Assembly: GCA_035275625.1 (NCBI GenBank)
Contig: DATEMK010000066.1
Coordinates: forward strand, 1 to 43,782
Origin: Bacteroidia bacterium
GTDB taxonomy: Bacteria; Bacteroidota; Bacteroidia; AKYH767-A; OLB10
Length of the DNA stretch: 43,782 bases
Direction: 5' to 3'
The notes under the pieces are model-generated. The model ran no database searches. It worked only from the letters and a program-made list of their open reading frames with translations, and had not been told where the DNA came from. Below, piece by piece: positions 25,609-42,777 of this stretch; position 1 is the first letter of the stretch, and the number at the start of each line of letters is the position of its first letter. A program made the translations under genes and the position numbers.

Positions 25609-26435
25609 TTTCTTCTGTCAGGAGCTTTCGAATCAAATACAATCTTGTTGAACATTTCCCTCATTCGAGATCGTACTCGGGTCCCGTAAGTTTCCTCTAT
25701 CTGATCAGCTGTTAAATTTGTTGTGATGTGGGTTTTGTTTCGCATCTTGTAAAACAGATCATAACGGTTCAGGATGGTTTCTGCCATAACATTAGCCTGA
25801 TTCCCGAAATGCTTTTGGATCTCTTCTGTTCCAAGATCATCAAAACAAATTCCGACAGATTGCTCATGCCCGAACTTTACTCCTGCAGTTGCAGATTGAT
25901 ATTCACCGAAATATTTTGCGATTGCCTGACGTCCTCCGTCTTTACCTCCATCAGAAAATTCACTGGCCACCTTCCGGCAGCTGATCACAAAGTAGCTGGC
26001 CACCTGGTTATCGCGGAACATGCGCATGAGTGTTGTTTTTCCACAACCTACATTTCCAAATAACAAGATCCCTTTGTCAAGCTTCCACCCGTTTTTTTCT
26101 TCGAACCTTTTGTCATTAGTGAAGTAACAGGCCAGGTCGAAAATTATTTCTTCGTTGTATTCATCGATCACAAAATTTTTAACAGTCTTTTTGATTTGTT
26201 GAATGATCCGACCGTTAAACACTTCTGCAGAATAAATAGGATAAACTTTTGGCTTGTGGACAGTCGCCCAGTATTCTTTCTCCTTCTGAGCTTTGTCAAT
26301 ATCTTCCTTTGCTTTAAGGATGGCGGTTTTAGTTATTTGTATTTCCTGTTCCTGAGTGAGAGTTATGTGTTTATAGCTCTCCAATTTCTCGTCCAGATTC
26401 AATTCTTTGACTGGTATTGTTGCCGGTAGTTCCAT
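25605..26435 (-). CDS. DnaC/IstB-like AAA+ ATPase (helicase loader)
   Basis: Walker A LLFGNVGCGKTTL and Walker B ICFDDLGTEE. It sits downstream of the replication organiser gene. Confidence 0.75.
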   Translation of the reverse strand: MELPATIPVKELNLDEKLESYKHITLTQEQEIQITKTAILKAKEDIDKAQKEKEYWATVHKPKVYPIYSAEVFNGRIIQQIKKTVKNFVIDEYNEEIIFDLACYFTNDKRFEEKNGWKLDKGILLFGNVGCGKTTLMRMFRDNQVASYFVISCRKVASEFSDGGKDGGRQAIAKYFGEYQSATAGVKFGHEQSVGICFDDLGTEEIQKHFGNQANVMAETILNRYDLFYKMRNKTHITTNLTADQIEETYGTRVRSRMREMFNKIVFDSKAPDRRK

Positions 26436-27192
26436 TTTTTTTGATGTTTTGATTTTCTGTTTTCTTAGCCCAACTGATGAAGTGTTCCATTAACTCAAAC
26501 AGTGAGCGATTCAAGTTATGTTTTAGGTTTTGCTCCTCTATAAATCTTTTCAACATTTCCTCGATTTTTGCGCGCGGAAAACTTAAAAACTTTGATGTGT
26601 TATATATCCATCCTTCATTCTCGAGGAGCTTTTCCAAAATGGTTTCAGGATTATAAATAACTTTTGATCCAAAAAGTTCAGGCGAAATTTCCTTTACTTT
26701 TTTTTCTTTTAATTTTATTTCCTTTGCTTTACTTTGCTGCATTTCCTCCGGTGTTATCGCAATTAACTCCGGAGTTAACTCTTTAAAATCATGGGAAAAC
26801 CGTAATAAATTCAGATTCGGGTTTATTATAAAATTTTTCCGCTTTCCTGCCTGGCAAATGGCTACATATCTTTTTTGAATGCCGGCTGAGGTCAGAATCT
26901 TGAACGAATCAAAAATGATTTTGTGGAAAAAATCGCGCTTGACCAATTCATGCACCACATCATTCACTAACGTATGTTGAATATTACCCACACGCTTTGC
27001 AAATAGTATTGCTTCATCATCCCCCCATTGATAATAATACCCTTTGTCCTTATAAATTTTACATAGTAACTTAATAGCAATCACTTCTCCCTTTTCCCCG
27101 AACCTCCCGGAGACGAATTGAATCTTGTCATCCTCAAAAAAATCAACATTAAATGGAAAATAATCCAATCCTTCTTTTATCGGTCGAGCCAT
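26371..27192 (-). CDS. Replication organiser/initiator (DUF4373, DnaD-like N-terminal domain)
   Basis: N-terminus MARPIKEGLDYFPFNVDFFEDDKIQFVSGRFGEKGEVIAIKLLCKIYKDKGYYYQW is the characteristic DUF4373 pattern of Bacteroidota phages. Confidence 0.65.
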   Translation of the reverse strand: MARPIKEGLDYFPFNVDFFEDDKIQFVSGRFGEKGEVIAIKLLCKIYKDKGYYYQWGDDEAILFAKRVGNIQHTLVNDVVHELVKRDFFHKIIFDSFKILTSAGIQKRYVAICQAGKRKNFIINPNLNLLRFSHDFKELTPELIAITPEEMQQSKAKEIKLKEKKVKEISPELFGSKVIYNPETILEKLLENEGWIYNTSKFLSFPRAKIEEMLKRFIEEQNLKHNLNRSLFELMEHFISWAKKTENQNIKKNGTTGNNTSQRIESGREIGEL

Positions 27193-27868: not shown

Positions 27869-28035
27869 AATTTCTTTAAATATTCAACTAATACAATTAA
27901 GTTGTAAGGATCAATTAGTTCATAGAAGTCAAGTCCGTTGTGCACCATTTTCACAATTTCGATTTGCTTTTTGCTATGTACTTTGTAATGCACGGTGAAA
28001 GGAATTCCACAGACACGGCAATCATGCTTTTTCAT
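27865..28035 (-). CDS. Small protein (56 aa) absent from the ORF track
   Basis: MKKHDCRVCGIPFTVHYKVHSKKQIEIVKMVHNGLDFYELIDPYNLIVLVEYLKKL. The start overlaps the E1-like gene's end by 14 nt, and the stop overlaps the next ATG (ATGA). Confidence 0.4.
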   Translation of the reverse strand: MKKHDCRVCGIPFTVHYKVHSKKQIEIVKMVHNGLDFYELIDPYNLIVLVEYLKKL

Positions 28036-28858
28036 TTTTTGCTTTAATCATTATAGGATTTGTACTTAGATTGTCGAGGTTTAAAAACAAACCATGATAC
28101 TCCAGTTTCAAATTCCTGAACATCTTCCAGATCAGTTGTGCTCCATATTGCGCCAGGATGGAATTAATAAACAAATCCTGCTTTCCCAAAGCTTCAGCAA
28201 GTGAACAACTGGGCATATCCGGCTTATCAAATTTTTTCATATCCGGAAACAAATCCAGTATAGTAGGTAATTCTTTAACTGTACCCTTAGATCCTTTAGG
28301 CTGGTTCACTTTACCGAAGGTTCCTAACACCACCTGGCCTGATGTCTGGCTGTTGCCAAGGTCCAGCCAATAAACCGGTATGTTAAAGGGTGATCGGTCG
28401 TTATTGGTTAAATATTTAATTTCTTCGATCCATTCACGTGACTGTACGTTGTCCACACATGATACCATCATATTAGCAAAGCACCTGTCTTTTAAAGCCT
28501 GTTGATCCCATTTCATAGGAAATGACTGCCAGTTGAATCCATAAAACCTGTTGATACGCTCAATAAGAATTTTTGCTTTGTACTGATCTAAGTCAGCTTT
28601 TGAAAACAATTGCCGTCCCAAGTTTGCCTCGCTTACTTTATCAGGATCCCACGCCTGTACAACTATACCCGGGTGGCCCAATGCAATGAGCGAAACATTG
28701 ATTCTGGCCAGCGCCTGCAGCATCTGGCTGCCGGATCCACCACACCCAATCACTTTGACTGTTATGGGATGTTCAGGGGATAGAAAATACTGTTCGGTAA
28801 AATGAACTTTCTTTTCTTCTTTTTTGGAAACTGATTTTTTACTTACAGATTTTCGCAT
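28022..28858 (-). CDS. ThiF/MoeB/E1-like adenylyltransferase (PRTRC ThiF-family component)
   Basis: Rossmann motif VIGCGGSGSQMLQALA, then DPDKVSEANLGRQLF and VSCVDNVQSR, all hallmarks of the E1-like fold. It sits in PRTRC synteny. Confidence 0.8.
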   Translation of the reverse strand: MRKSVSKKSVSKKEEKKVHFTEQYFLSPEHPITVKVIGCGGSGSQMLQALARINVSLIALGHPGIVVQAWDPDKVSEANLGRQLFSKADLDQYKAKILIERINRFYGFNWQSFPMKWDQQALKDRCFANMMVSCVDNVQSREWIEEIKYLTNNDRSPFNIPVYWLDLGNSQTSGQVVLGTFGKVNQPKGSKGTVKELPTILDLFPDMKKFDKPDMPSCSLAEALGKQDLFINSILAQYGAQLIWKMFRNLKLEYHGLFLNLDNLSTNPIMIKAKNEKA

Positions 28859-29556
28859 ATTGCTCTGAGATTGGTAGTGCTCTGTTTAAGTTTTTTTAAA
28901 TTGAATTTACCCCTGCGTTTTTTCCTCCACCACTTCTGCATGTCCGTTTTACTATAGGCGCCTGTTACATTGTCGGTAAATTCCGAATTCCAGAATGCCT
29001 TTTCCCAGGCTGCAATAAGTTCATTAATATCCCCGCTTGTTTTTGGCACCTTCACATTACCAAGACACACCTTATGATCGGAATACACATTGAAGAACGG
29101 AGCATGATGCAGCCTGGTTAAAATGGATGGCCTGCGATTCTTATTCAATGCAGTTACAACCAGTGTATTGTTTTTGACGATGAAGACAAGCGGAGGAGTC
29201 CATGCAGTGATGGACGGCTTATTTTTAATCAGCAGAGTCTGGCGCTTTGTCGTCTGCCACCAGGCGATTACATTTCGTCCCGGGCGCTGATCAATAACCA
29301 GCAGGTTGGTGGGAACTATATCCGAAATAGAATAATACGTTTGCTTATCGTTTTTTGCAACCACATCCATCAGCAGCTGCAACGATTGTTTAGTAACCGG
29401 TTTTCCTGATCCGATAAATGCCTTGGAACCATCCTGCATGATGTCCGACACCTCCACGTAATATTTGGTTTCGGTCCGGTCTTTTTCAGCAGGATTGGTT
29501 GAATAAACAATCAAAGCCTGCTTGGGTGAATAAAATGAAAGGTTCGGTTGTTTCAT
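28843..29556 (-). CDS. PRTRC protein-B-like, possible E2/UBC-like component
   Basis: 237 aa, directly upstream of and overlapping the E1-like gene. The motif LHHAPFFNVYSDHKVCLGN is reminiscent of the E2 HPN...CL active-site region. Confidence 0.55.
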   Translation of the reverse strand: MKQPNLSFYSPKQALIVYSTNPAEKDRTETKYYVEVSDIMQDGSKAFIGSGKPVTKQSLQLLMDVVAKNDKQTYYSISDIVPTNLLVIDQRPGRNVIAWWQTTKRQTLLIKNKPSITAWTPPLVFIVKNNTLVVTALNKNRRPSILTRLHHAPFFNVYSDHKVCLGNVKVPKTSGDINELIAAWEKAFWNSEFTDNVTGAYSKTDMQKWWRKKRRGKFNLKKLKQSTTNLRAICENL

Positions 29557-30836
29557 AGAATATCTAATAATGGTATTGGTTTGAACAGTGCCTTGGAAAG
29601 TTTGTTAGTGTCTTCAAAAACACTCCGGTATTTTTTCTCCATCATCCGGCCAGCTTTCATAAATTTAATCAGTACCTCCGGGAAGCAATTTTTTGTATCC
29701 TCAAAATCTGATGGCTTCTCAATAACACAATCAAGAAAGAAAGGAACACCTCCCGCATTGCTGGTCTGTGCCTCACACATACCGGTGAGTTCATAATGAA
29801 ATGCATCATCGGTTCTCCAAAGAAATTTTACTGCCTCGTCAGGAGTCATGGGTAATTCATCGTATTGCTCCTCCTGTCCTTCATATTCTGAGGGAAGAGA
29901 AATGAACTTATGCATGTTCTGTCCCGACACCATTAGTTGCTTTCCAAGTTCCAGCCAGCTATAAATGTCTTTCAGGATTTGTGTATTGGGCTTGTATTTT
30001 CCAAAATAGCTGTCATACTCCCGCAGCCAAACCCTTTTCGATGAACCCGCTCTGATGAGCCGGTTGTAAAATTTGGTGGCTTCTCCTTTATTTCCGAATT
30101 CCTGATGTGCTTTTTCCAGGGATTCAATTTCCTTTTTCGTTTCATCACGGGGATCATTGCCATGATTTGTTTTATAGTGAACAAGGTTTTCTTCGATATT
30201 TTGATAGATGTAATTTTCACTATCTTCTTGCCACAAACCAACACCCCCACTATTGTTTAAATACCTGATCAGGTAAAAGCATAAATCAAAAAGGGAACCC
30301 TTATTTACTTTTTCTAATTGTGAAATCCAATACACCGGCATCACTGGACAGTCCACATCAAAGTAAACTGGCTGTTTCAGCCTCCAGCAATAACGTCCAT
30401 CTTTCAGAACAATGCCCAGCTCCTCGTGGTGAATCAGCTTGGATGTTTTAAGAAGAAATATGTGGAACACTTCTGAAACGGATGATTTATCAGTCCAGCG
30501 TGTGTTATCCTTGAATCCTTTGATTCCTGATGTAAGCGGTAATAAATCTTCCAGCGCCTTCAGGAGTTTTGATTCATCCTCCAAGAGGCAGTGACCTTTT
30601 GGCTTAGTCATCAAATCCACATGCACCCCATTCACGTATCTCAAAGGAATTTTTATGGAAGGTGGCATATGATTTCGGAGGGAGGAGGCACCCGTTCCCG
30701 GCTGTGCATCGAGAGGTCTAACACGCTCCGATTGATAGCGCTTTCGGAATGTAGGATGCTTCCGATTACGTTGTGAAGCTCCTGTAGATCCTCTTGCGGA
30801 TGATTGGGCTTTGGTGGTTTTCTTTTCTTTTTGCAT
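29553..30836 (-). CDS. Uncharacterised 427-aa cassette protein with a very basic N-terminus
   Basis: Lies between the Ubl and E2-like genes. The start at Met30 (30836) avoids a 68-nt overlap with the Ubl gene. The track ORF extends to 30923. Confidence 0.55.
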   Translation of the reverse strand: MQKEKKTTKAQSSARGSTGASQRNRKHPTFRKRYQSERVRPLDAQPGTGASSLRNHMPPSIKIPLRYVNGVHVDLMTKPKGHCLLEDESKLLKALEDLLPLTSGIKGFKDNTRWTDKSSVSEVFHIFLLKTSKLIHHEELGIVLKDGRYCWRLKQPVYFDVDCPVMPVYWISQLEKVNKGSLFDLCFYLIRYLNNSGGVGLWQEDSENYIYQNIEENLVHYKTNHGNDPRDETKKEIESLEKAHQEFGNKGEATKFYNRLIRAGSSKRVWLREYDSYFGKYKPNTQILKDIYSWLELGKQLMVSGQNMHKFISLPSEYEGQEEQYDELPMTPDEAVKFLWRTDDAFHYELTGMCEAQTSNAGGVPFFLDCVIEKPSDFEDTKNCFPEVLIKFMKAGRMMEKKYRSVFEDTNKLSKALFKPIPLLDIL

Positions 30837-30855
30837 CTGATAAACTGTTCCGTAT

Positions 30856-31077
30856 TCATCCTTTTGTTCCGACAGATGTTTTAAACGAATATATCGCCTT
30901 GGAACCCTCCACCTTCGGGCCACTCACTGATGCATTGGTCAGCTCGGGATATTCAGAGGAATAAAATTTAATCACTTCCTGCGGTGTCATATCCGGGTTC
31001 GGATCTGCCAGGTCAATTTCTTTACCATTCTTCTGGATGGTAAATTTTCTTTTTAAAGTATCTACTTGTAGTGCCAT
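30856..31077 (-). CDS. PRTRC protein-C-like ubiquitin-like (beta-grasp) protein ending in Gly
   Basis: 73 aa: ...MTPQEVIKFYSSEYPELTNASVSGPKVEGSKAIYSFKTSVGTKG. The size, the EYPELTNA core and the C-terminal GTKG match my recollection of the PRTRC C family. Confidence 0.7.
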   Translation of the reverse strand: MALQVDTLKRKFTIQKNGKEIDLADPNPDMTPQEVIKFYSSEYPELTNASVSGPKVEGSKAIYSFKTSVGTKG

Positions 31078-31090
31078 GTTTTTATATAGT

Positions 31091-32095
31091 TTAATCAGTT
31101 AATTCTTGTAACGCCTTTATCCATTTTTCAGCTGAGGCAAGCTGTTTGATCACCTCCGCATTGTCCGGAAATTTCTCTTTTGCTTTTTTGAAAGTTTCCA
31201 GTGATGCCTCATATTGACGATCCGTTCGCTGCTTCAATCCAGTTTCCATTAAATCTTTCAACTCTTTTTCCCTGGCATCTGCCTGTTGTTTGTTCAATGC
31301 CTGCTTTGCTTTCTCCAAATCATGTGAAGCTTTTGTATTTCCATCAGGCGCTTTGGTAACTGCAATTTCATATGCACGAATCGCCTCCTCGAAATTGCCG
31401 GCATCCATAGCACGCTTACCCAGATCCATTGTGTCAGTAAACTCTTTCAGCTTTTCTTTTGCTGCCTCAACTTCTTTTGATTTGTCCTGCTTGGATTCAG
31501 TTTCCTCAGGCTCCGTTTCAACCTTCACCATAGTAAGGTGTTTGTTAACCAGCTTTGTCAATTCAAACATGGAAACCGTTTTCTTTCCTCCAAAAATCTT
31601 TTTGAGGTTCTCATCAGAATGTATAGTTCGTTTTTCCTTCTTGTCCTGTAATCCCTTTTCTTTAATGTAAGCCCACATCTTTTTTGTCACTTCCGTTCTT
31701 GCTAACGGTTCTTTGCCAACAATCGGTTGAAGCGCTTCCCCGATTTCCATCTTCATCATAAAGGCGGGTTCTCTTTCAGATGATTTGACTTTTTTCTTAG
31801 AGTGTGAGCTTTTCTTTTTGGAAGATGCTTTCGAACCCTTACCATCTGTTTCAGTGTCGGATTCCGGTGCATCCTGCACAGTAACATTGAACTTTTGTTC
31901 GGTTGGCTCGGTGTTCACTTTTAAATGATTAATGATTCCATTGTCCACCTCTTCCGGATTGCCGGTCATGGTGATCAGTTTGTTGTCTTTATTGATGAGC
32001 AATGTCAGCTTATCACCCACTCGTGTAGTGGTAATTTTAACGACCTGTTTGTCGTTGAGTAGCGCAAATAGCGCTCTGAAGAAGATTTGTTCCAT
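31091..32095 (-). CDS. PRTRC protein-E-like N-terminus, SWIB/MDM2 domain, and TPR-like C-terminus
   Basis: N-terminus ...KITTTRVGDKLTLLINKDNKLITMTGNPEEVD. Residues 109-188, PAFMMKMEIGEALQPIVGKEPLARTEVTKKMWAYIKEKGLQDKKEKRTIHSDENLKKIFGGKKTVSMFELTKLVNKHL, are a textbook SWIB domain. Confidence 0.75.
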   Translation of the reverse strand: MEQIFFRALFALLNDKQVVKITTTRVGDKLTLLINKDNKLITMTGNPEEVDNGIINHLKVNTEPTEQKFNVTVQDAPESDTETDGKGSKASSKKKSSHSKKKVKSSEREPAFMMKMEIGEALQPIVGKEPLARTEVTKKMWAYIKEKGLQDKKEKRTIHSDENLKKIFGGKKTVSMFELTKLVNKHLTMVKVETEPEETESKQDKSKEVEAAKEKLKEFTDTMDLGKRAMDAGNFEEAIRAYEIAVTKAPDGNTKASHDLEKAKQALNKQQADAREKELKDLMETGLKQRTDRQYEASLETFKKAKEKFPDNAEVIKQLASAEKWIKALQELTD

Positions 32096-32106
32096 AATTT
32101 TAAAAT

Positions 32107-33261
32107 TTAATTTTTAGTAAATGTTACGTTTGTTAATTGTCTTCCGTTATTCCATATTGAGTAAAGCCCTTTTTCATTAACTCTAATCGTCATAGTTTCT
32201 ATCTTGCCGAAAAAATTAATATTACCTCCAAGATCCACCAGCCAGCAACTTTCTTTAGAAGGATGTATGCGCATTCCTCTTCCGAAAATCTGATAGTATA
32301 GTGCAAGTGACATCGTGGAGCGGGCCAGTAAAACACATTCCAGTTCAGGATAATCAAAGCCTGTGGTCAGCACACCCACGTTGATCACACAGCGAATCCT
32401 TCCGCTTTTAAATTGTGCCAGCACACGGTCACGCATTGCTTTATCTGTTTCCCCGGTAATTACGACCGCTCCGGGAATACCGCTTGCAACTTCTTTGGCT
32501 TCTGCAATCAGCGAACAGAACACTAACAGGTTTTTTCTTTTTGCAAGTAACCGGTTAGCATAGCCGATGGTGATTTGCGGCATGTTGATTTTACGGTAAT
32601 GCTCTTTGAGGCTGGCATCGGTAAAATCTGTTCCGGTAGAATTTACCTGCAGCATCTTTCTGTCAATTACATTGAAGCTGAAATATTCAAGCCTGGCAAG
32701 GTGGCCGGAGTCAAACAACACCCTGTTCTGAACATAGTAGATGCATTTGTTAAATATCCGCGGATTGGTCCTGTTGATAAATTTCAACATGGCGCCTTCA
32801 AGGGAGGATGAAAGCCGGTAAGGTGTTGCAGTAAGTCCCAATACTTTGGCTCCCGGAATAGCTTTTACAAAATCATGGTACATTCCCCCTTTGCCATTCA
32901 CCAGGTGACATTCATCAATAATTATATTTTCGCAATCCCGGAACAAGTGATGTTTGGTGGTAACGCTTCCTATTGTTGAGAAGGTTATTTTATCTAAATA
33001 TTTTTTCCCTGCCGATGCCGAGTAAACTCCTGCACGATAACCATAGCTGGTAAACTTCTGCACGTTCTGTGCAAGTATTTCTTTAGAAGGTTGAAACACT
33101 ACAGTCTTGCCACGGAGCTCCTTCGCTATATTAGCTATCACCACCGATTTCCCGGAGCCGGTTGGAAGTATTTCAAAGGCGTTATAGTTTCCACTGCCGT
33201 TGAAATAATTCACCGCATGGTGTATGGCGTCTGCCTGATATGGTCGTGGGGTAAACTGCAT
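32107..33261 (-). CDS. Superfamily 2 DEAD/DEAH-box helicase
   Basis: Motif I LPTGSGKS, motif II IIIDECH, motif III LTATP, motif VI QIFGRGMR. Confidence 0.85.
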   Translation of the reverse strand: MQFTPRPYQADAIHHAVNYFNGSGNYNAFEILPTGSGKSVVIANIAKELRGKTVVFQPSKEILAQNVQKFTSYGYRAGVYSASAGKKYLDKITFSTIGSVTTKHHLFRDCENIIIDECHLVNGKGGMYHDFVKAIPGAKVLGLTATPYRLSSSLEGAMLKFINRTNPRIFNKCIYYVQNRVLFDSGHLARLEYFSFNVIDRKMLQVNSTGTDFTDASLKEHYRKINMPQITIGYANRLLAKRKNLLVFCSLIAEAKEVASGIPGAVVITGETDKAMRDRVLAQFKSGRIRCVINVGVLTTGFDYPELECVLLARSTMSLALYYQIFGRGMRIHPSKESCWLVDLGGNINFFGKIETMTIRVNEKGLYSIWNNGRQLTNVTFTKN

Positions 33262-33872
33262 TAAACTTTTCCGCTTGAAAATTCTTTTTCTTTTTCCGCT
33301 TCTTCAATAGCATCATGTAATGTCACCTGGTTTGGATTTGTCCCCTCGTCCTCCTCCGGCATCGTGCATTTGCCTCCGATATACAATTCCACTTCTTTGA
33401 TTGCGTTTTCAGAAGCTGCCTTCAATTCTTTAAAGAACTCATATCCGCCTGTGTGGTCGAGCATGATTTTGGGAGTTTCCATGTCCATGATACCGTTAGC
33501 CACATGCTTGCTTCCAATCAGCACGATGGAAAGATTATCTTCTTCACCATTCATTTTAAATCCGCTTACCGTATAATCGTTGGTGATGTCATGGTTGTGG
33601 AATTTGTTGATTTTATCAATTTCAATTCCTTTGTGCTTATATACACCATCAATGATGGCGAGGTGCACGTTAAATCGTGAGAAAGCAATTTTCATGTCCT
33701 CATCCACAATGCCTTCTCCTTTTACATTATGCTTTCCGACACCGGCTCCCGATGTAACATGAATACTATAGTTGCACAAATCATCTGCTATGCTTGCGCC
33801 TTTCACTTCGAAATCTGTTGGTAAGTTCATTGGTTCTTGTTCTGTTTTTGATTTTTTGTTTGATTTTTTCAT
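33261..33872 (-). CDS. Hypothetical early protein
   Basis: 203-aa ORF, coupled to the helicase gene. Confidence 0.5.
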   Translation of the reverse strand: MKKSNKKSKTEQEPMNLPTDFEVKGASIADDLCNYSIHVTSGAGVGKHNVKGEGIVDEDMKIAFSRFNVHLAIIDGVYKHKGIEIDKINKFHNHDITNDYTVSGFKMNGEEDNLSIVLIGSKHVANGIMDMETPKIMLDHTGGYEFFKELKAASENAIKEVELYIGGKCTMPEEDEGTNPNQVTLHDAIEEAEKEKEFSSGKV

Positions 33873-33881
33873 GTTGATTTT

Positions 33882-34214
33882 TTATTTTATTATTAGTCCT
33901 ATAATTCTTTTTGCAACTTGAAGCCTGTATTCTACCGGTATATAGTACCACTTATGTTTCAGCTTATTCCCCTGTGCGTCTGTCGCCCAGTCAGCCTTTA
34001 CCGGAATGTTGAAAAAATCTTTCAGGTCTTTTGCTCTCCTTGCCATGTGACCGATATAAGGGTCTTTGTTAATGATGTGGTCTCCGTTGAGCATTCTTTT
34101 CAAAGCCTGCCAACATTGTTCATTAAAATCTTCTCTGCGTAATTCGAGCATTGCCTGACTTTCAGGATTATTTTCTTTTTTGTGTACAGGATCCCAGTCT
34201 ATTCTAAGTTGCAT
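33882..34214 (-). CDS. Hypothetical early protein
   Basis: 110-aa ORF. Confidence 0.5.
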   Translation of the reverse strand: MQLRIDWDPVHKKENNPESQAMLELRREDFNEQCWQALKRMLNGDHIINKDPYIGHMARRAKDLKDFFNIPVKADWATDAQGNKLKHKWYYIPVEYRLQVAKRIIGLIIK

Positions 34215-34853
34215 CTATTCAGTTACCGTTTCATCAGGAGTGTTTTCGTATGCTGAGGCATATTCCAGATATGCCAACCCCAAGTCCTGACTCGTTATAA
34301 AAAAATCCATGGGCGGTAATTCAGGATGAGCTTTGCGGTGTATTAGTGTTGCAGCTCCAAACCAGTCATATTTTTTTCTGAGCTCGTAACCTTTAGTGCC
34401 AGCCATGTGAACTAAATGACCTGCCAGGCACATAGCGCTTTTACAAATATTTTCTTCGGGATTAAATTCTGTGATCTCTCCAAATGTTGATTGCTGGTAG
34501 CATCTTTTCTTCTCATTAACTTCTTTGAGGATTGTCGAATATGGTTTGTCCAAAACAGGAATGCTTTCCCATTCATCAAGCTTTTCTTTTATTCCATTGA
34601 TCACGTCCGGTGACAGGTTCTTGATCACGTCCGGTGACAGGTTATTGATCACGTACGGTGACAGGTTATTGATCACGTACGGTGACAGGTTATTGATCAC
34701 GTCCGGTGACAGGTTCTTGATCACGTACGGTGACAGGTTCTTGATCACGTACGGTGACAGGTTCTTGATCACGTCCGGTGACAGGTTCTTGATCACGTAC
34801 GGTGACGCTTGCATGGCCATAAAAGCCTTAATGTTTAATGGAAGTTTTTTCAT
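34215..34853 (-). CDS. Octapeptide-repeat protein (NLSP[YD]VI[KN] x ~9) with a Cys-containing C-terminal domain
   Basis: The start is placed at MKKLPLNIK (34853), 1 nt after the upstream stop. The track ORF extends to 34973. The repeats are encoded by the 24-bp tandem array. Confidence 0.6.
   Translation of the reverse strand: MKKLPLNIKAFMAMQASPYVIKNLSPDVIKNLSPYVIKNLSPYVIKNLSPDVINNLSPYVINNLSPYVINNLSPDVIKNLSPDVINGIKEKLDEWESIPVLDKPYSTILKEVNEKKRCYQQSTFGEITEFNPEENICKSAMCLAGHLVHMAGTKGYELRKKYDWFGAATLIHRKAHPELPPMDFFITSQDLGLAYLEYASAYENTPDETVTE
34599..34806. repeat. Tandem direct repeat, 24 bp x 8.7 copies: GATCACGT[C/A]CGGTGACAGGTT[C/A]TT
   Basis: Counted by hand: 8 full units plus a 16-nt partial unit. 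Only two positions vary, each between the same two bases. Every unit contains a GATC. Confidence 0.95.
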
Positions 34854-34854
34854 A

Positions 34855-35466
34855 TTATTTTGTTTTTGATAGTAGTTGTAAGTATTGTTGTAATCGAATT
34901 TGAAATTGTTTAAAAAGACTGTTGAGCTCGGGAGCACTGAAAATGAAAACCTGTACCTCCCTGGTTTCTTCAACTAACATGGAGATCATACCATAGTCAA
35001 TGTGAATTCCGTTTTCTAATAGTGCAGCACGGTAAGAAGCTAATTGCAAAGGGTAATCATTCAGCCAGTCTTTTTTCTTTGGCTTGCCGCTTCCCTTGAA
35101 ATCGTTGATAATTACACGACCGTCCTTTTCAAAAATGCAATCGTAACGCCCTTTGTATTTGTGGATGTCGCTGAAAACATCCTGTTCAATGCATCTGATT
35201 TTGTAACCGGAAAGAAAATTTTTCAGGAGATCGTTTTCACAATTGCCGGTCTCAAAATATAGTTGAACGTTCTGATCAATTTCCCTACCGCGCTTTAGGG
35301 ACTCGCGCATGATCCGGTCAGCTTCTTTCTCGCCAATTCGTTCACACCATTGCTGAAGTTGTAGTTTGCTCGACTCCGGCATTGTTGCCGAGAGAATTTT
35401 GGTGATAGAATGATATAGCTTCCGGTCTTCCAATAGTGGAAGTTTGGTTTGATATTCTTCGCTCAT
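34855..35466 (-). CDS. PD-(D/E)XK nuclease (RecB/lambda-exonuclease-like)
   Basis: GRYDCIFE...VIINDFKGSGK (D...D/E-x-K) followed by QLASY (the QxxxY motif of the RecB nuclease family). It is adjacent to a Sak4-like ATPase. Confidence 0.6.
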   Translation of the reverse strand: MSEEYQTKLPLLEDRKLYHSITKILSATMPESSKLQLQQWCERIGEKEADRIMRESLKRGREIDQNVQLYFETGNCENDLLKNFLSGYKIRCIEQDVFSDIHKYKGRYDCIFEKDGRVIINDFKGSGKPKKKDWLNDYPLQLASYRAALLENGIHIDYGMISMLVEETREVQVFIFSAPELNSLFKQFQIRLQQYLQLLSKTK

Positions 35467-35935: not shown

Positions 35936-36844
35936 TTATGCAGTTTTTAAATTTTTAACTTGATTATATCTCTCTTTTGCTGCTTTAATAAAGTCAGCAT
36001 TTTCAATTACGTAAATGGGAAGCGTTTCTTTCAGCAAGGTCAAATCTTCAACGCTGTCACATTTGGCGAGCTTATCTATGGCTGTTACAACCTCCGCCTT
36101 TACATCCAAACCTGATTCACACCATTGAAGAATATTCTGTCCGGTTTTCTCAGAAGGTACGAAACCACCAGAGGCAAAAAGTCCGGAACGGTCTTTCATC
36201 GCGGTTGCATAGTGATTCAGGTTAAGATCAAAATGAATCGTGAATTCATAGTCAACACCTTCACGTTGGATGGGTGCCATGCCTACTTTTTTTGGAACTT
36301 GAATTATCTTGCCATTTTTCTCAATGGATTCCAGAACATAATCCACCTTGCTTCGCATACATCCAATGATGTGGCATTTGCTTGAAAGCATTGCCTCAAT
36401 AAATTTGTTGTGCCGAGGTGTCGCTTCACTCCATCCATTAGTAAATGCATTCTTGCTGTTTGATGAAGCTTTGAGAGTATCTACCAACTCCATCACTCCA
36501 CCGCTGCCGTTCCACTCATGTGAAATGGAATCAATAATTATTACTTCAATTCCTTCGACTTCACATTCCTTAATCGCCTCGATATAACGCTCAGGCGAGT
36601 ATGGTTTTTCCAATGGAAGTACCTGGAACTCTCCAATTGTAAATTTTCTTCCATCACTTTCTAAGGTGTGGTTTGCATAAAGATCAGCTGAGTTGTTTTC
36701 TGTATCAATCAAAGCGATCTTATTCCAGTCTTGTGTAAGACCGTAAGCAATCAGCAATGCTGATGCTGTTTTTCCGCTTCCGGCAGGTCCGGAAAGTCCT
36801 AATCTGATTTTTGCTTTTTGCCGTGTGGCTTTTCTGAGTGTCAT
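35936..36844 (-). CDS. Sak4-like RecA-fold ATPase (AAA_24 type, single-strand annealing or recombination)
   Basis: Walker A LSGPAGSGKTASAL and Walker B VIIIDSISHEW, with typical size and context. Confidence 0.75.
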   Translation of the reverse strand: MTLRKATRQKAKIRLGLSGPAGSGKTASALLIAYGLTQDWNKIALIDTENNSADLYANHTLESDGRKFTIGEFQVLPLEKPYSPERYIEAIKECEVEGIEVIIIDSISHEWNGSGGVMELVDTLKASSNSKNAFTNGWSEATPRHNKFIEAMLSSKCHIIGCMRSKVDYVLESIEKNGKIIQVPKKVGMAPIQREGVDYEFTIHFDLNLNHYATAMKDRSGLFASGGFVPSEKTGQNILQWCESGLDVKAEVVTAIDKLAKCDSVEDLTLLKETLPIYVIENADFIKAAKERYNQVKNLKTA

Positions 36845-36937: not shown

Positions 36938-38215
36938 TTAAATCGCTATTTCGTTTTTCTCAAGAAGCGTTTTGGTGAACAGGTTTATAAAATGCGTCTG
37001 GAACTGTCGGGAACAATCCACAAAGCCTGTGTTGAAATGTTCAGCTTCTTCTACTATCGTGCAGATGATTTCGAACATTGATTTATTCATCAACTGTTCG
37101 CTCATTAAAATTTCTTTTTTGTCGAGGTGGATTTGTGCGAAAATGGTTTTGTCTCCGAAAATGCCGTAGATAAATTTGAGTTCAGGGTTGATGAAATAAC
37201 CACATGATTCCAGTGTTGCTAATGCGGATTTTATTTTCAATTCGAGTTCAGGAAGAAATATTTCAAAAAACTCATTCACCTTGTCGGCTACTCTTACTGC
37301 GCTGATCCCCTTGAATTGTGCATTGAGAGAAATGAAAAGATTCTTTGGGACTATAACAACACCGGATAAATCAATCGGCAGTTCCCTTGCCTTAATGTCA
37401 TTGACTAACCTCTCGTGGATAATCTTAGCATTGCCCAGGGCTTCGCTCCAACTGTCGGAATATTTTGTACTCATCCATGAATAGTCCATCGAACCCTCAT
37501 AGTGATCTTCCTTCATTGTTGAAAGAGCATACTCCGCTACTTTTTTATCTGCATTAGTCAGGCACTTGGTGATGTCCCAATCCAACAGCCCTGTGTATTC
37601 ACGCAGCTCGTTTATAGAGGCGTTCTTTATGTCATACCTAAACAGAGCCGGTTTTTCATCATTCTCTTTTATAAGAACTCCCTGCTTGTAAATCCGTAAT
37701 GATTTGCCACCGCTGTAAATGGAAAAATCCGGACAGTCATACATCGGGGTTTCTCCGTGAATAAAATAGTTACCCCATTTATCGTGAACCTGTTTGATCT
37801 CTGTAACAAACTGAATGTAAAAAGTGGTGGCGCCTTCTGTTCCTGAAACTGTTTCCGTTACTTCTTTCTGTGCTTCACCTTCGTCCAGTGCGTTACACCA
37901 TAGCTCACGAATGATCATCCACGCTTTCCAGTCGAATCCCATTTTGTCGGTGATGGAGCTGCGTTCACCTTCTATATAAATAATCCGGAACTCCTGTTCA
38001 CGGATCAGTTCGGTTTTAGTTGTCATGGAAATTTCTTTCTCACCGACAAATATTTTGAAGTCAATGTTGTTGCGTACAAGGTAAGCAAGTACATATTTCA
38101 ACCCTGTGCCGAATTGCCCGATTTTAAAATCATCGTCACGCTTTGTTGTACCTCCCATGAGCGACACCAACCGTATGTCGAGGAGTCCTTTGTTCTGAAT
38201 TTTTAGATATTTCAT
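36938..38215 (-). CDS. Uncharacterised 425-aa protein with GHKL-ATPase-like motifs in reversed order
   Basis: KIGQFGTGLKYVLAYLV (like the Hsp90/MORC G2 box IGQFGVGFYSAYLV) at residues 31-47, and RELWCNALDEG (N-box-like) at residues 103-113. Confidence 0.45.
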   Translation of the reverse strand: MKYLKIQNKGLLDIRLVSLMGGTTKRDDDFKIGQFGTGLKYVLAYLVRNNIDFKIFVGEKEISMTTKTELIREQEFRIIYIEGERSSITDKMGFDWKAWMIIRELWCNALDEGEAQKEVTETVSGTEGATTFYIQFVTEIKQVHDKWGNYFIHGETPMYDCPDFSIYSGGKSLRIYKQGVLIKENDEKPALFRYDIKNASINELREYTGLLDWDITKCLTNADKKVAEYALSTMKEDHYEGSMDYSWMSTKYSDSWSEALGNAKIIHERLVNDIKARELPIDLSGVVIVPKNLFISLNAQFKGISAVRVADKVNEFFEIFLPELELKIKSALATLESCGYFINPELKFIYGIFGDKTIFAQIHLDKKEILMSEQLMNKSMFEIICTIVEEAEHFNTGFVDCSRQFQTHFINLFTKTLLEKNEIAI

Positions 38216-39900: not shown

Positions 39901-40524
39901 ATGGATCAAAACGATAAAGTATTCATGGAAGAAATCGAGTATTTGAAATCGTTACGGATTATAAAAAGAGACTCTGAAATTGTGAAAAGCACAGGCTACA
40001 GCAAGGGACTTGTATCTAATTATATCAATGGTAAGATTCCAATCAGCGAAGCTTTCAAAGAAAAATTCTACGAGGTTTACGGGGAACACTTGCCTAAGAA
40101 CAAAGTTTCAGATGTTGAAACTAAGTCGCAAGGCGGAAATATCATCCACGTTCCGTTAATTGCTTATGGTGGTTTTTTGCAGGGTTACGCAAACAAAGTT
40201 TTTATGGATTCTCTTCAAAGATTTTCGCTCCCTGGTGTTAATGGAGAGCATTACGCTTTTGAAGTTGATGGGATGAGCATGTTTGATTTGGCTGCGCCTG
40301 GCGACACTGCAATAGCCAGACTGGAAGAAAAAGTTGACTGGATGATTAAAGGAAAACCGTATGTATTGCAAACCATTGATGGCCTACTGATAAAACTTTA
40401 TGATGGAATTAAAGGGGAGAAATGGATATTCAAATCCTACAACCCGGAGTACAAACCAATCGAAATTCCATTGAGGAACCTGAAAAGAGTTTACTTTGTC
40501 ACTCGAATTTTAAAAAAAGTATAA
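39901..40524 (+). CDS. cI-like repressor (HTH plus S24 LexA-like autopeptidase)
   Basis: N-terminal HTH (STGYSKGLVSNYINGK). C-terminus FEVDGMSMFDLAAPGDTAIA...LLIKLYD carries the S24 Ser/Lys dyad pattern. Confidence 0.8.
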   Translation: MDQNDKVFMEEIEYLKSLRIIKRDSEIVKSTGYSKGLVSNYINGKIPISEAFKEKFYEVYGEHLPKNKVSDVETKSQGGNIIHVPLIAYGGFLQGYANKVFMDSLQRFSLPGVNGEHYAFEVDGMSMFDLAAPGDTAIARLEEKVDWMIKGKPYVLQTIDGLLIKLYDGIKGEKWIFKSYNPEYKPIEIPLRNLKRVYFVTRILKKV

Positions 40525-41537: not shown

Positions 41538-41621
41538 GCCCGGGTGGCGAAATTGGCAGACGCGCAGGTCTCAGAAGCCTGTGGGGTAACACCTTTAGGA
41601 GTTCGAGTCTCCTCTCGGGCA
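41538..41621 (+). tRNA. tRNA-Leu (anticodon CAG)
   Basis: Folded by hand. Acceptor GCCCGGG/CTCGGGC (one G:U pair); anticodon stem CAGGT/GCCTG with loop CTCAGAA; long variable arm; T-arm AGGAG-TTCGAGT-CTCCT; discriminator A. No encoded CCA. Confidence 0.9.
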
Positions 41622-41632
41622 CTAAATAAAAT

Positions 41633-41685
41633 AGGTTTAAAGTTTAAAGTTCTTTCTATTACCCTTAACTTTAAACTTTAAACCT
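41633..41685 (+). terminator. 19-bp perfect inverted repeat (hairpin) between the tRNA and aroC
   Basis: AGGTTTAAAGTTTAAAGTT (41633-51) pairs with AACTTTAAACTTTAAACCT (41667-85), with a 15-nt loop. It is AT-rich and built from GTTTAAR heptamers. Confidence 0.45.
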
Positions 41686-41697
41686 TAAACCTCATAA

Positions 41698-42777
41698 ATG
41701 CCCGGCAACACTTTTGGTCAACGCTTCCGCATTACCACTTTTGGCGAGTCGCATGGCGAAATGATCGGAGTTATTATTGACGGATGTCCTGCCGGATTGG
41801 AAATTGATTTTGATTTTGTCCAAAAAGAATTGGATCGCAGAAAACCGGGGCAATCATCTATTACTACTCAACGAAAAGAAAGTGATACGGCAAAATTTGT
41901 ATCCGGAATTTTTAATGGAAAAACAACAGGCGCTCCCATTGCAGCCATTATTCCGAATGAAGATGCCCGTGAAAAAGATTATGAACATCTGAAAAATACT
42001 TTTCGCCCGTCTCATGCAGACTACGTTTATGAGATGAAATACGGCATCCGGGATTATCGCGGAGGAGGGCGTTCTTCCGCACGCGAAACTGCCGCTAGAG
42101 TTGTTGCAGGAGCGATTGCAAAAGTTCTTTTGAAAAAATATGGAATAACAATTACTGCTTATGTTTCAAAAGCGGGAGAAATCGTTTTGCAAAAAAATTA
42201 TACAGAATTGAATTTGGAGGATGCAGAAAAAAATATAGTCCGCTGCCCGGATGAAACAACTGCTCAAAAAATGATTGAACTTATTGAGAAAACAAGAATT
42301 GAAGGTGATTCAATCGGGGGAATAATTTCATGCGTTATAAAAAATTCTCCTGCGGGATTGGGTGAACCTGTATTTGACAAGCTGCATGCTGATTTGGGAA
42401 AAGCAATGCTGAGCATTAATGCTGTTCAGGGGTTTGAATACGGGAGTGGTTTTGACGGTGCAGAAAAAAAGGGATCCCTGAATAATGATGAGTTTTTAAA
42501 TAAAGACGGAAAAATAATCACAAAAACAAATTTCTCCGGAGGCATCCAGGGAGGAATCAGTAATGGAATGGATATCTATTTCAACGTTGCTTTCAAACCG
42601 GTTGCAACAATAATAAAAGCACAGAAAAGTGTAAATAAACAGGGAGAAGAAATAACTCTTGAAGCAAAAGGCCGCCATGATCCCTGTGTGCTGCCGCGTG
42701 CTGTCCCGATTGTTGAAGCAATGGCTGCAATTGTTTTAGCAGATCATTTATTAAGGAATAGAAATTCAAAAGTCTGA
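41698..42777 (+). CDS. aroC: Chorismate synthase
   Basis: [20 protein letters not shown]..., RPSHADY..., [11 protein letters not shown]..., GRHDPCV: all canonical AroC motifs. Confidence 0.95.

What the first reader, a model, noticed from the sequence alone, without database searches (positions are those of the whole stretch)
34599..34806. Near-perfect 24-bp x 8.7 tandem array with a GATC in every unit, embedded in-frame in an early gene (iteron/ori candidate)
Seen in sequence: there are eight full copies and one partial copy of GATCACGT[C/A]CGGTGACAGGTT[C/A]TT. Variation is restricted to two positions, and each toggles between the same two bases. The array is therefore a combinatorial mix of four unit types.

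On the coding (minus) strand it encodes NLSP[D/Y]VI[K/N] octapeptides. The opposite strand is also open through the array. Each unit carries a GATC and either a CGTACG or a CCGG palindrome.

Established knowledge: lambdoid phages place their origin iterons inside a replication-module coding sequence (ori-lambda lies within gene O).

Inference: the array may be the phage origin or another protein-binding iteron set, or a slippage-prone variable-number repeat that changes the protein's length. The near-identity of the units implies recent expansion or concerted homogenisation.
Basis: partly seen in the sequence, partly recalled or inferred. Interest (0 to 1): 0.68.

Follow-up and report, generated by a model that had tools for sequence, protein, structure and literature searches.

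The report
Coding repeat array of a phage protein
The 24-bp tandem array is most likely not a replication origin: it encodes a fast-evolving string of eight-residue units, each with two either/or positions, at the front of an uncharacterised phage early protein found in hundreds of phage lineages.

Summary
There are 8 full and one partial 24-bp units at 34597-34806, and they vary only at two C/A positions.

The origin (iteron) reading is not supported; the variable-number coding repeat reading is.
- The array lies in frame in gene 34215-34853 (minus strand, 212 aa). It encodes NLSP[D/Y]VI[K/N] units in front of a conserved C-terminal domain with two near-invariant cysteines.
- That C-domain defines about 350 phage or prophage protein clusters. 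It is always C-terminal and usually follows an array of 5-, 8-, 10- or 12-residue units.
- Within an array the DNA units are almost identical. Between lineages the synonymous codons differ, yet the same D/Y and N/K alternatives persist.
- Variation within arrays is almost all non-synonymous, two-state and chemically radical.
- GATC is not conserved per unit and is common throughout the window.
- Close relatives (C-domain 83-95% identical) differ in copy number (2-13) and unit order.
- AlphaFold2 predicts one short helix per unit, with both variable residues on one face. The fold has no solved or viral relative.

My inference is a hypervariable binding scaffold attached to a conserved effector or anchor domain. 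Its function is unknown. A test for a one-unit-one-base code against nearby DNA was negative.

The parts
34597..34806 (-). 24-bp x 8.8 tandem array. It encodes residues 17-86: one partial and eight full octapeptide units NLSP[D/Y]VI[K/N].
   Evidence: AlphaFold2 predicts a 5-residue helix (P-D/Y-V-I-K/N) plus a 3-residue linker per unit, with block-mean pLDDT 67-87.
34215..34853 (-). Whole gene, 212 aa. It consists of an N-terminal cap helix, the octapeptide array, a connecting helix and the conserved C-terminal domain.
   Evidence: ORF list. Thirteen homologues were found by phmmer-type search. The C-domain profile finds 350 clusters at 50% identity. The model has mean pLDDT 85.3 and pTM 0.79.
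34807..34853 (-). N-terminal leader or cap (residues 1-16, MKKLPLNIKAFMAMQA).
   Evidence: Helix 6-13, with mean pLDDT 90 for residues 1-10. Homologues have a similar MKK..KA.LA..GGN leader.
34215..34596 (-). Conserved C-terminal domain (residues 87-212 plus stop). Motifs are PY(S/T)xLL, QSTFG and C-x4-C-x-AG(H/W). Two cysteines (C137, C142) are near-invariant.
   Evidence: Alignments A1 and A2. No Pfam family matches. Weak, consistent matches to phrog_889 (14/14 members) and phrog_31265 (11/14), both of unknown function. pLDDT is mostly above 90. No structural relative in PDB or BFVD at E<0.6.
34525..34869 (+). Antisense open frame through the array (114 aa). It is a by-product of repeating a stop-free unit, not a gene.
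   Evidence: Every homologous array tested has at least one open antisense frame, whatever its sequence.
34855..35466 (-). Upstream neighbour, a PD-(D/E)XK recombination exonuclease. Its stop lies one base before the repeat gene's start, so I infer they share an operon.
   Evidence: Pfam PDDEXK_1 at 8e-07 and phrog_298 exonuclease at 1.6e-29. A YqaJ-like exonuclease gene also lies directly upstream in locus L001.

Best explanation
The array is the coding sequence of a repeat domain, and I see no evidence that it acts as a DNA element.

Shown:
- It encodes about 8.7 octapeptide units at the N-terminus of a 212-aa phage early protein.
- The protein's conserved C-terminal domain carries two near-invariant cysteines and defines a large, unnamed phage or prophage family.
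- In that family the C-domain is preceded by arrays of short units of 5, 8, 10 or 12 residues.
- Units are homogenised at the DNA level within each array. The exceptions are one to four codons per unit that are kept in two alternative states.
- Copy number and unit order change faster than the flanking sequence.

Predicted:
- Each octapeptide forms one short helix plus a turn.
- The two variable residues sit at positions i and i+3 of that helix. I infer that they lie on the same exposed face, flanking the invariant hydrophobic Leu and Ile.

Inferred:
- The array is a solenoid-like scaffold. Its surface is a string of two-bit units (D or Y, K or N).
- Unequal recombination among the near-identical DNA units reshuffles that surface and changes its length.
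- It serves as a rapidly diversifying recognition module, most likely for a host or defence-related partner. It would deliver or anchor the conserved C-terminal domain.
- The partner and the activity of the C-domain are unknown.
For: Family and architecture:
- 13 homologues share about 50% identity in the C-domain. All carry NLSA[D/Y]T[I/L][N/K]-type arrays with the same two toggles.
- The C-domain profile finds 350 clusters at E<=1e-3, and the match lies at the C-terminal end in the proteins listed.
- Of 214 family proteins held, many of them fragments, 72 have arrays of at least 4 copies. Periods are 5, 8, 10 and 12 aa, with three period-16 (2 x 8) and one period-11 array.
- These include true Pfam Pentapeptide arrays, the Pfam 'Decapeptide repeat region' and one LRR-like case.

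Selection acts on the protein:
- Within arrays the codons are identical. Between arrays Leu, Ser, Ala, Thr, Asn and Lys codons differ, while D/Y and N/K persist. N/K appears as AAT/AAG, AAC/AAA and AAT/AAA; D/Y as GAC/TAC and GAT/TAT.
- Of the recurrent single-nucleotide toggles, 38 are non-synonymous and 1 is synonymous, against 26% synonymous expected (P about 1e-4).
- Replacements are radical: mean BLOSUM62 -1.37 against -0.55 (P about 4e-4).
- 147 of 149 recurrent variable columns have exactly two states.

Fast array evolution:
- C-domains that are 83-95% identical go with 2-13 units in different orders.
- L001's array is a mosaic of AGT-Ser and TCG-Ser blocks.

Structure:
- AlphaFold2 with a 125-sequence alignment gives mean pLDDT 85.3 and pTM 0.79, with helices at 26-30, 34-38 and so on.

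Context:
- The gene sits in the early recombination/replication operon of a prophage.
- Cultured relatives are annotated 'putative pentapeptide repeat protein' in Ralstonia phages (RSK1 ORF34; Bakoly gp01 is an unannotated relative). They also show GA[D/Y]L units.
Against: - No binding partner, activity or phenotype is known. The binding-surface idea rests on analogy with other repeat scaffolds.
- pLDDT over the array is only moderate (block means 67-87). The single-sequence model was poor, with pLDDT 46. I could not inspect model coordinates, so the claim that the toggles are exposed is inferred from helical geometry.
- The toggle statistics pool arrays that share ancestry, so the P values are overstated.
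- G<->T changes on the coding strand are in excess: 22 of 38 against 16% expected. This could reflect a mutational or gene-conversion bias rather than selection.
- Copy-number variation was seen between related phages, not within this phage's own population.
- No gene is a conserved neighbour, so context gives no guilt-by-association clue.
Confidence: 0.6

Rival explanations
1. Replication origin or other iteron set. The 24-bp units would be binding sites for the phage initiator or another DNA-binding protein, placed inside a coding sequence as ori-lambda is inside gene O. GATC methylation would modulate firing.
For: - Nine head-to-tail direct repeats lie in the early region of a temperate phage, and each carries a GATC.
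- An A+T-rich stretch lies just beside the array at about 34807-34900.
- The window has no other strong iteron-like array.
Against: - The host gene is not an initiator. The Lin1244_N initiator-like gene and the AAA ATPase gene next to it are 7-8 kb away.
- Homologous genes keep the peptide repeat but not the DNA sequence or the GATC.
- All intra-array variation changes the protein.
- Unit lengths across the family are always multiples of three: 15, 24, 27, 30 and 36 bp.
- Arrays occur in phages with unrelated replication systems.
- GATC is at its expected density across the whole window.
- A 24-bp period is about 2.3 helical turns. Sites would not sit on one face of the DNA, unlike typical iterons (established knowledge).
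Confidence: 0.05
2. Passive spacer. The array is a tolerated, recombination-driven expansion that only sets the length or flexibility of an N-terminal linker. The two-state sites would be neutral polymorphisms spread by unit duplication.
For: - Copy number varies freely from 2 to more than 20.
- Unit order looks random, with no autocorrelation at lags 1-6 in 21 arrays.
- Two-state sites are what a single mutation spreading through an array would give.
Against: - The same D/Y and N/K alternatives persist across lineages whose synonymous sites have diverged and whose C-domains are only about 50% identical.
- Synonymous polymorphism within arrays is almost absent, and replacements are radical rather than conservative.
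- The non-variable unit residues (L, S, I) are conserved across subfamilies.
- The model predicts order, not disorder.
Confidence: 0.2
3. Programmable nucleic-acid reader. As in TALE, PUF or PPR repeats, each unit would read one base through its two variable residues. Four unit types would correspond to four bases, so the unit order would spell a target sequence.
For: - Units are near-identical and variation is confined to two residues.
- There are exactly four common unit types: DN 75, DK 63, YN 60, YK 31.
- D, N, K and Y are typical base-contacting or stacking residues (established knowledge of TALE, PPR and PUF codes).
- Unit order is aperiodic, as a sequence would be.
Against: - I tried all 24 type-to-base mappings, both orientations and both strands, on the window and the stretches held for loci L001, L002, L003 and L008. 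None matched better than shuffled unit orders.
- Close relatives have completely different orders and lengths.
- Other subfamilies have one to five two-state positions per unit, not a fixed four-type alphabet.
- Eight residues per base is geometrically unprecedented.
- The test has low power, because a target in the host genome or in unsampled phage DNA would be missed.
Confidence: 0.05
4. DNA-mimic anti-restriction or topoisomerase-directed protein, by analogy with pentapeptide-repeat proteins (Qnr, MfpA) and early phage DNA mimics (Ocr, ArdA).
For: - Distant members of the same C-domain family carry genuine Pfam Pentapeptide arrays.
- The gene is in the early region.
Against: - The arrays are electroneutral: window array net charge +1, and a family mean of -0.09 per 10 residues. 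Ocr and ArdA are strongly acidic (established knowledge).
- The octapeptide units are predicted helical, not a beta-helix.
- The window protein does not match the Pentapeptide models.
- No PADLOC or annotated anti-defence match was found.
Confidence: 0.1

Closest known systems
Proteins with the Pfam PF25296 'Decapeptide repeat region' in front of the same C-terminal domain (e.g. P0052, P0018, P0200)
   Same: - The C-terminal domain is homologous.
- The N-terminal array has near-identical short units with two-state positions (R/I, W/L, D/A).
- Copy number is variable.
   Different: - Units have 10 residues (AAGYSLSDAR or AAGWTPSDLR types) rather than 8.
- The window protein does not match PF25296 at E<=0.01.
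- The Pfam entry describes only the repeat. No function is attached and the C-domain is not modelled.
Pentapeptide repeat proteins (Pfam PF00805), including the phage genes annotated 'putative pentapeptide repeat protein' (Ralstonia phage RSK1 ORF34)
   Same: - The Ralstonia phage proteins carry the same C-domain: hmmsearch 2e-14 for Bakoly gp01 and 1.7e-12 for RSK1 ORF34.
- Their GA[D/Y]L[R/K/G] units show the same D/Y alternation.
- The genes lie in the early or DNA-metabolism region.
   Different: - The period is 5 and the fold is a right-handed beta-helix (established knowledge), against period 8 and predicted short helices here.
- The window protein fails the Pentapeptide models.
TALE repeats (Xanthomonas/Ralstonia effectors), and PUF/PPR codes
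   Same: - Tandem units are almost identical at the DNA level and variation is concentrated in two residues per unit.
- Arrays evolve by recombination between units (recalled knowledge).
- The 'L(S/T)P(D/A/E)Q' start of some family units resembles the LTPEQ/LTPDQ helix cap of TALE repeats. The TALE motif is from my memory and the resemblance is only a lead.
   Different: - Units are 8 residues against 33-36.
- There is no sequence or fold match.
- The one-unit-one-base test was negative.
- These are phage early proteins, not secreted effectors.
ori-lambda iterons inside gene O, and iteron origins in general
   Same: Direct repeats inside the coding sequence of an early gene of a temperate phage.
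   Different: - The host gene is not the initiator.
- Units abut without spacers at a 24-bp period.
- What is conserved in relatives is the peptide, not the DNA.
Hypervariable prophage genes with intragenic tandem repeats (hyvI/hyvII of 'Candidatus Liberibacter asiaticus' prophages), and bacterial coding VNTRs in general
   Same: In-frame, near-identical tandem repeats in a prophage gene whose copy number differs between isolates. Papers on the Liberibacter case surfaced; the details are recalled, not read.
   Different: - That is a different protein family with much longer units.
- A conserved two-state position pattern has not, to my knowledge, been described there.

Membership tests
Iteron-type replication origin | Several direct repeats of about 17-24 bp | tested here: met
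   8.8 copies of 24 bp.
Iteron-type replication origin | Located in or next to the initiator gene that binds them (lambda O model) | tested here: not met
   The host protein has no initiator domain. The Lin1244_N initiator-like gene is at 26371-27192.
Iteron-type replication origin | Repeat DNA sequence or arrangement conserved among related elements independently of coding | tested here: not met
   Synonymous codons differ between homologous arrays, GATC is lost in most of them, and the peptide is conserved.
Iteron-type replication origin | Initiator binding and origin firing at the site | not testable with these tools
   Needs EMSA or ChIP and marker-frequency analysis.
Coding variable-number tandem repeat (VNTR) | In-frame, near-identical head-to-tail units | tested here: met
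   Units are 24 bp (8 codons), 96% identical, inside ORF 34215-34853.
Coding variable-number tandem repeat (VNTR) | Copy number differs between close relatives | tested here: met
   Family members with 83-95% identical C-domains carry 2-13 units. This was not testable for the window's own strain, because no near-identical sequence was found.
Pfam PF25296 Decapeptide repeat region | Match to the family model above its cut-off | tested here: not met
   The window protein gives no hit at E<=0.01. Relatives such as P0052 score 237 bits.
Pentapeptide repeat proteins (PF00805) | A(D/N)LXX units of period 5 that match the model | tested here: not met
   No hit for the window protein. Its period is 8. 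Distant family members do match.
TALE/PUF/PPR-type modular nucleic-acid readers | Unit order specifies a nucleic-acid sequence, one unit per base | tested here: inconclusive
   No match better than shuffled controls in the window or in the stretches held for four loci. Targets elsewhere cannot be excluded.
TALE/PUF/PPR-type modular nucleic-acid readers | Repeat of 33-36 residues with two or three helices, and sequence or fold similarity | tested here: not met
   Units are 8 residues with one short helix. No Pfam or Foldseek similarity.
Unnamed phage family defined by the C-terminal domain (phrog_889 / phrog_31265 neighbourhood) | C-terminal domain with PY(S/T)xLL, QSTFG and C-x4-C-x-AG(H/W) motifs | tested here: met
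   The window protein is a full-length match: E 2.5e-50 against the profile. The conserved residues are listed.
Acidic DNA-mimic anti-restriction proteins (Ocr/ArdA type) | Strongly negative surface charge that mimics the DNA backbone | tested here: not met
   Array net charge is +1 and whole-protein pI is 5.9. The family mean is -0.09 charge per 10 residues.

The most novel reading that the evidence does not exclude
Phages carry a widespread natural 'combinatorial repeat library'. It would be a minimal solenoid of 5-12-residue units in which selection keeps one to four exposed positions per unit in two radically different states (D/Y, K/N, R/I, G/W and others). Unit shuffling by recombination would then generate a new two-bit-per-unit binding surface in each lineage. 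That would make it a prokaryotic-virus analogue of TALE arrays, variable lymphocyte receptors or designed repeat binders, coupled to a conserved effector domain with two near-invariant cysteines and used in the phage-host arms race.
Probability: 0.3. Interest if true: 0.8.

Novelty: new variant of a known kind. Interest (0 to 1): 0.6.

Why it matters
If the reading is right, three things follow.

- The array is a clean natural example of concerted evolution combined with balancing or diversifying selection at fixed positions of a very short protein repeat. It recurs in about 350 phage protein clusters across several bacterial phyla.
- It would point to an unstudied early phage function, a recognition scaffold joined to a conserved domain with two near-invariant cysteines. 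It could also supply a very small natural scaffold (8 residues per unit) for binder engineering.
- It is a practical caution. In-gene tandem repeats in phage early regions should not be read as origins without comparative evidence. These arrays also break metagenomic assemblies: 10 of 19 IMG/VR loci end inside the array, so the family is under-sampled.

Tried and rejected
- **Near-identical relatives of the phage, to compare copy number.** Megablast of 30-40 kb against GenBank phages found nothing. Exact-pattern scans of the genome, viral and metagenome collections found nothing. An exact-protein look-up found nothing.
- **TALE-like code.** All 24 mappings of the four unit types to bases, in both orientations and on both strands, were tried on five sequences. 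None beat shuffled unit orders.
- **Super-repeat or periodic order of unit types.** No autocorrelation at lags 1-6.
- **Template repeat for a diversity-generating retroelement.** The unit occurs nowhere else in the window. I did not search the window for a reverse transcriptase.
- **GATC significance.** GATC is at its expected density across the window and is not conserved in homologous arrays.
- **Antisense ORF.** Rejected as a by-product of the repeat.
- **Function from databases.**
  - The C-domain has no Pfam family.
  - There is no PADLOC match for the window protein.
  - There is no PDB sequence hit below E=0.2.
  - There is no Foldseek hit below E=0.6 in PDB or BFVD.
  - tblastn of the window C-domain against GenBank phages found nothing.
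- **Conserved neighbour genes.** None was shared by more than 3 loci.
- **Single-sequence AlphaFold2.** The model was too poor to use, with pLDDT 46.
- **Literature.** Searches on decapeptide or pentapeptide repeats in phages and on intragenic tandem repeats found nothing on this family.
- **A better origin candidate.** The short ATTTCCTTT-type repeats inside the Lin1244_N gene are weak and were not pursued further.
Full report
**1.

Tandem Repeats Finder reports a single strong array at 34597-34806, with period 24, 8.8 copies, 96% matches and score 371. The degenerate unit GATCACGTMCGGTGACAGGTTMTT matches eight times head to tail with no mismatch. It matches nowhere else in the 43.8-kb window, and dinucleotide-preserving shuffles gave 0 matches.

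Only the two M positions vary, and all four C/A combinations occur. The array holds 9 GATC, 5 CGTACG and 4 CCGG sites.

**2. The gene**

The array is in frame on the minus strand in an ORF ending at 34215. The likely start is ATG 34853, one base after the stop of the upstream exonuclease gene. This gives a 212-aa protein, MKKLPLNIKAFMAMQA-[SPYVIK][NLSP(D/Y)VI(K/N)]x8-GIKEKLDEW..., followed by a C-terminal region of about 125 residues.

D/Y is GAC/TAC and K/N is AAG/AAT. The plus-strand ORF through the array (34525-34869) has no significance. Every homologous array tested has at least one open antisense frame, because a stop-free unit is simply repeated.

**3. Genomic setting**

The window looks like an integrated temperate phage.
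- The right end carries tRNA-Leu at 41538-41622 and chorismate synthase at 41698-42777.
- An S24-peptidase repressor-like gene lies at 39901-40524.
- A long minus-strand block starts near 38.6 kb. My reading is that it is an operon.

In that block the repeat gene follows:
- an ORF matching phrog_8203, of unknown function (36938-38215);
- an AAA_24/Sak4-like ATPase (35936-36844);
- a 156-aa ORF;
- a PD-(D/E)XK exonuclease (34855-35466).

It precedes:
- two small unknown ORFs;
- a ResIII/DEAD helicase (32107-33261);
- a SWIB+TPR protein (31091-32095).

The Lin1244_N (formerly DUF4373) initiator-like gene is at 26371-27192. An AAA ATPase gene follows it; I infer a DnaC-like helicase loader. So the array sits 7-8 kb from the replication initiator, in a gene with no initiator features.

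**4. Homologues show what the array is**

A search with the whole protein found 13 homologues about 50% identical in the C-terminal region. Every one carries N-terminal octapeptide arrays of the form NLSA[D/Y]T[I/L][N/K], with the same two positions toggling between the same two residues. Among complete sequences, copy number runs from one or two to about twenty.

At the DNA level the units are almost identical within each array. Between arrays the synonymous codons differ:
- Leu CTG/CTT/TTA
- Ser TCA/AGT/TCG
- Ala GCG/GCT/GCC
- Thr ACC/ACG/ACT
- Asn AAT/AAC
- Lys AAG/AAA
- Asp/Tyr GAC/TAC or GAT/TAT

The repeat is therefore homogenised within a lineage (concerted evolution). It diverges at silent sites between lineages, while the peptide and its two alternations are kept. 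That is the signature of selection on the protein.

GATC per unit is present only where the codons happen to give it: GTG ATC in the window, ACG ATC in L002, and once more in L021. It is absent from the other arrays tested.

**5. The family is large and the architecture is general**

A profile of the C-terminal domain (A1) finds 350 clusters at 50% identity with E<=1e-3. In the proteins listed, the match lies at the C-terminal end.

IMG/VR, GenBank phages and bacterial genomes all contain members.
- Cultured Ralstonia phages are included (RSK1 ORF34, Bakoly gp01).
- So are genomes or MAGs of Bacteroidota, Alphaproteobacteria, Acidobacteriota, Planctomycetota and Patescibacteria.

In front of the domain sit arrays of several unit lengths:
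- 5 residues: genuine Pfam Pentapeptide, such as ANLS[E/K/W] and GA[D/Y]LK.
- 8 residues.
- 10 residues: the Pfam PF25296 'Decapeptide repeat region', such as AAG[W/L]TP[SD/RA]L[R/I].
- 12 residues, and rarely 9 or 11. One 11-residue case is LRR-like.

Of 214 family proteins at hand, many of them truncated, 72 have at least 4 copies. Of 149 variable columns with recurrent alleles, 147 have exactly two states. D/Y is the commonest pair (23 arrays) and K/N the next (16).

D/Y recurs in octapeptide, dodecapeptide and pentapeptide members.

**6. Variation within arrays is selected, radical and oddly biased**

I examined 17 arrays at the DNA level.
- 38 recurrent single-nucleotide toggles change the amino acid.
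- The single 'synonymous' one is part of a double change, ATC to AGA.
- About 26% synonymous would be expected (P about 1e-4).
- The replacements are more radical than random single-nucleotide changes: mean BLOSUM62 -1.37 against -0.55 (P about 4e-4).
- 22 of 38 are G<->T on the coding strand, against 16% expected.

These tests pool arrays with shared ancestry, so the P values are optimistic. The G<->T excess may come from selection for charged-versus-aromatic or hydrophobic pairs (D/Y, R/I, R/L, G/W, W/L, K/N). It may also come from a mutational or conversion bias. I cannot tell which, and I list it as unexplained.

**7. Arrays evolve faster than their flanks**

Proteins whose C-domains are 83-95% identical differ in copy number:
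- 2, 3, 9 and 10 units in one group;
- 2, 3 and 4 in a second;
- 4, 8 and 10 in a third;
- 8 and 13 in a fourth.

Unit order differs too. L001's array is a mosaic of blocks that use AGT or TCG for serine, which points to recombination between diverged arrays.

Within octapeptide arrays, the order of the four unit types cannot be told apart from random (lags 1-6, 21 arrays, 189 units). The two sites are close to linkage equilibrium (DN 75, DK 63, YN 60, YK 31).

It was shown between related phages, not within this strain, because no near-identical relative exists in the collections.

**8. Structure**

AlphaFold2 on the single sequence failed, with pLDDT 46. With a 125-sequence family alignment it gave mean pLDDT 85.3 and pTM 0.79. 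The model contains:
- an N-terminal cap helix (6-13);
- one five-residue helix per octapeptide (26-30, 34-38, ... 74-78; block-mean pLDDT 67-87), joined by three-residue N-L-S turns;
- a long connecting helix (82-97);
- a mostly helical C-domain with pLDDT mostly above 90.

Within a unit the helix is P-(D/Y)-V-I-(K/N). The toggles are at i and i+3, so I infer that they lie on the same face, away from the invariant hydrophobic V/I and L. I could not inspect coordinates.

In other octapeptide subfamilies the toggles fall at the equivalent places, although the residues differ. Examples are LSP[D/A]QIA[R/W] and LSREQLS[G/W].

Foldseek finds nothing at E<0.6 in PDB or BFVD. The top PDB hits are superhelical repeat proteins with TM-scores around 0.2. 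The C-domain has no Pfam family and no PDB sequence relative. It matches only PHROGs of unknown function (phrog_889 and phrog_31265). Its near-invariant residues are two cysteines (C137, C142), several glycines and two prolines.

**9. Mechanism, with the steps marked**

- Shown: the array is a coding, concertedly evolving, copy-number-variable repeat. It is under protein-level selection, with two maintained two-state positions per unit. It is the N-terminal module of a conserved two-module phage protein.
- Predicted: it forms a short-helix solenoid with the variable residues on one face.
- Inferred: the array is a rapidly diversifying recognition surface, and the C-domain is the constant effector or anchor. 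This is the arrangement seen when a conserved activity must track a changing partner, as in phage-host conflicts.

The family freely swaps one solenoid type for another (pentapeptide, LRR-like, 8-, 10- or 12-residue units) in front of the same domain. That fits a generic scaffold role rather than one specific fold.

**10. Alternatives tested**

- Origin or iterons: see sections 3-5. I put this at about 5%.
- TALE-like code: every mapping of the four unit types to the four bases was searched in both orientations and on both strands in the window and the stretches held for four loci. None beat shuffled controls. The power of this test is limited to targets in those sequences.
- Acidic DNA mimic: the arrays are electroneutral.
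- Diversity-generating retroelement: there is no second copy of the unit in the window.
- Neutral spacer: hard to square with toggles that persist across lineages and with the lack of silent polymorphism.

**11. Novelty**

Pfam already names the 10-residue repeat, and annotators call the 5-residue members 'pentapeptide repeat protein'. The following appear undescribed in the libraries and literature I could search:
- the octapeptide form;
- the shared C-terminal domain as a family;
- the rule of conserved two-state positions.

I class the finding as a new variant of a known kind (coding tandem-repeat scaffold proteins), of moderate-to-good interest. The origin interpretation that motivated the finding is not supported.

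Noticed in passing
window 28022-29556 (minus strand), plus 29553-30923: A Prok-E2_D (E2-like) gene at 28843-29556 and a ThiF/E1-like gene at 28022-28858 lie side by side in the phage early region. An unknown 456-aa ORF sits just upstream. This looks like a phage-borne ubiquitin-like conjugation pair.
   Followed up: no
window 31091-32095 (minus strand): A 334-aa phage protein with a SWIB/MDM2 domain (E 1.4e-26) and TPR repeats, next to the ResIII/DEAD helicase gene.
   Followed up: no
window 26687-26730, inside the Lin1244_N (formerly DUF4373) gene 26371-27192: A short ATTTCCTTTACTTTT-type repeat (15 bp x 2.9, with a third degenerate copy near 26742) lies inside the initiator-like gene, in the lowest-GC part of the window. 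On position alone it is a somewhat better in-gene origin candidate than the 24-bp array, but the repeat is weak.
   Followed up: partly
whole window: CTAG is almost absent: 2 copies against about 27 expected from a Markov model. GATC and CCGG are at or slightly above expectation.
   Followed up: no
window 41538-42777: tRNA-Leu(CAG) and a full chorismate synthase gene lie at the right end. This is bacterial flank, so the element is probably an integrated prophage. No integrase was identified among the ORFs I scanned.
   Followed up: partly
window 33843-33891: A T-rich 12-14-bp tandem repeat (about 3.5 copies) lies at the junction of genes 33261-33872 and 33882-34214, just downstream of the repeat gene.
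   Followed up: no
loci L004, L009, L010, L013, L015, L017, L018, L019, L022 and others (IMG/VR): In 10 of 19 viral contigs that carry the family, the contig ends inside the repeat array. Short-read assemblies break there, so array lengths and family abundance are underestimated in metagenomes.
   Followed up: partly
family-wide (17 arrays examined at the DNA level): Two-state sites are G<->T on the coding strand in 22 of 38 cases, against 16% expected. Transitions are rare. The cause, selection for particular residue pairs or a mutational or conversion bias, is unresolved.
   Followed up: partly
L001 10001-10861: This 17-unit array is a mosaic of blocks that use AGT or TCG serine codons and Leu or Ile at one position. 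That suggests recombination between two diverged arrays.
   Followed up: no
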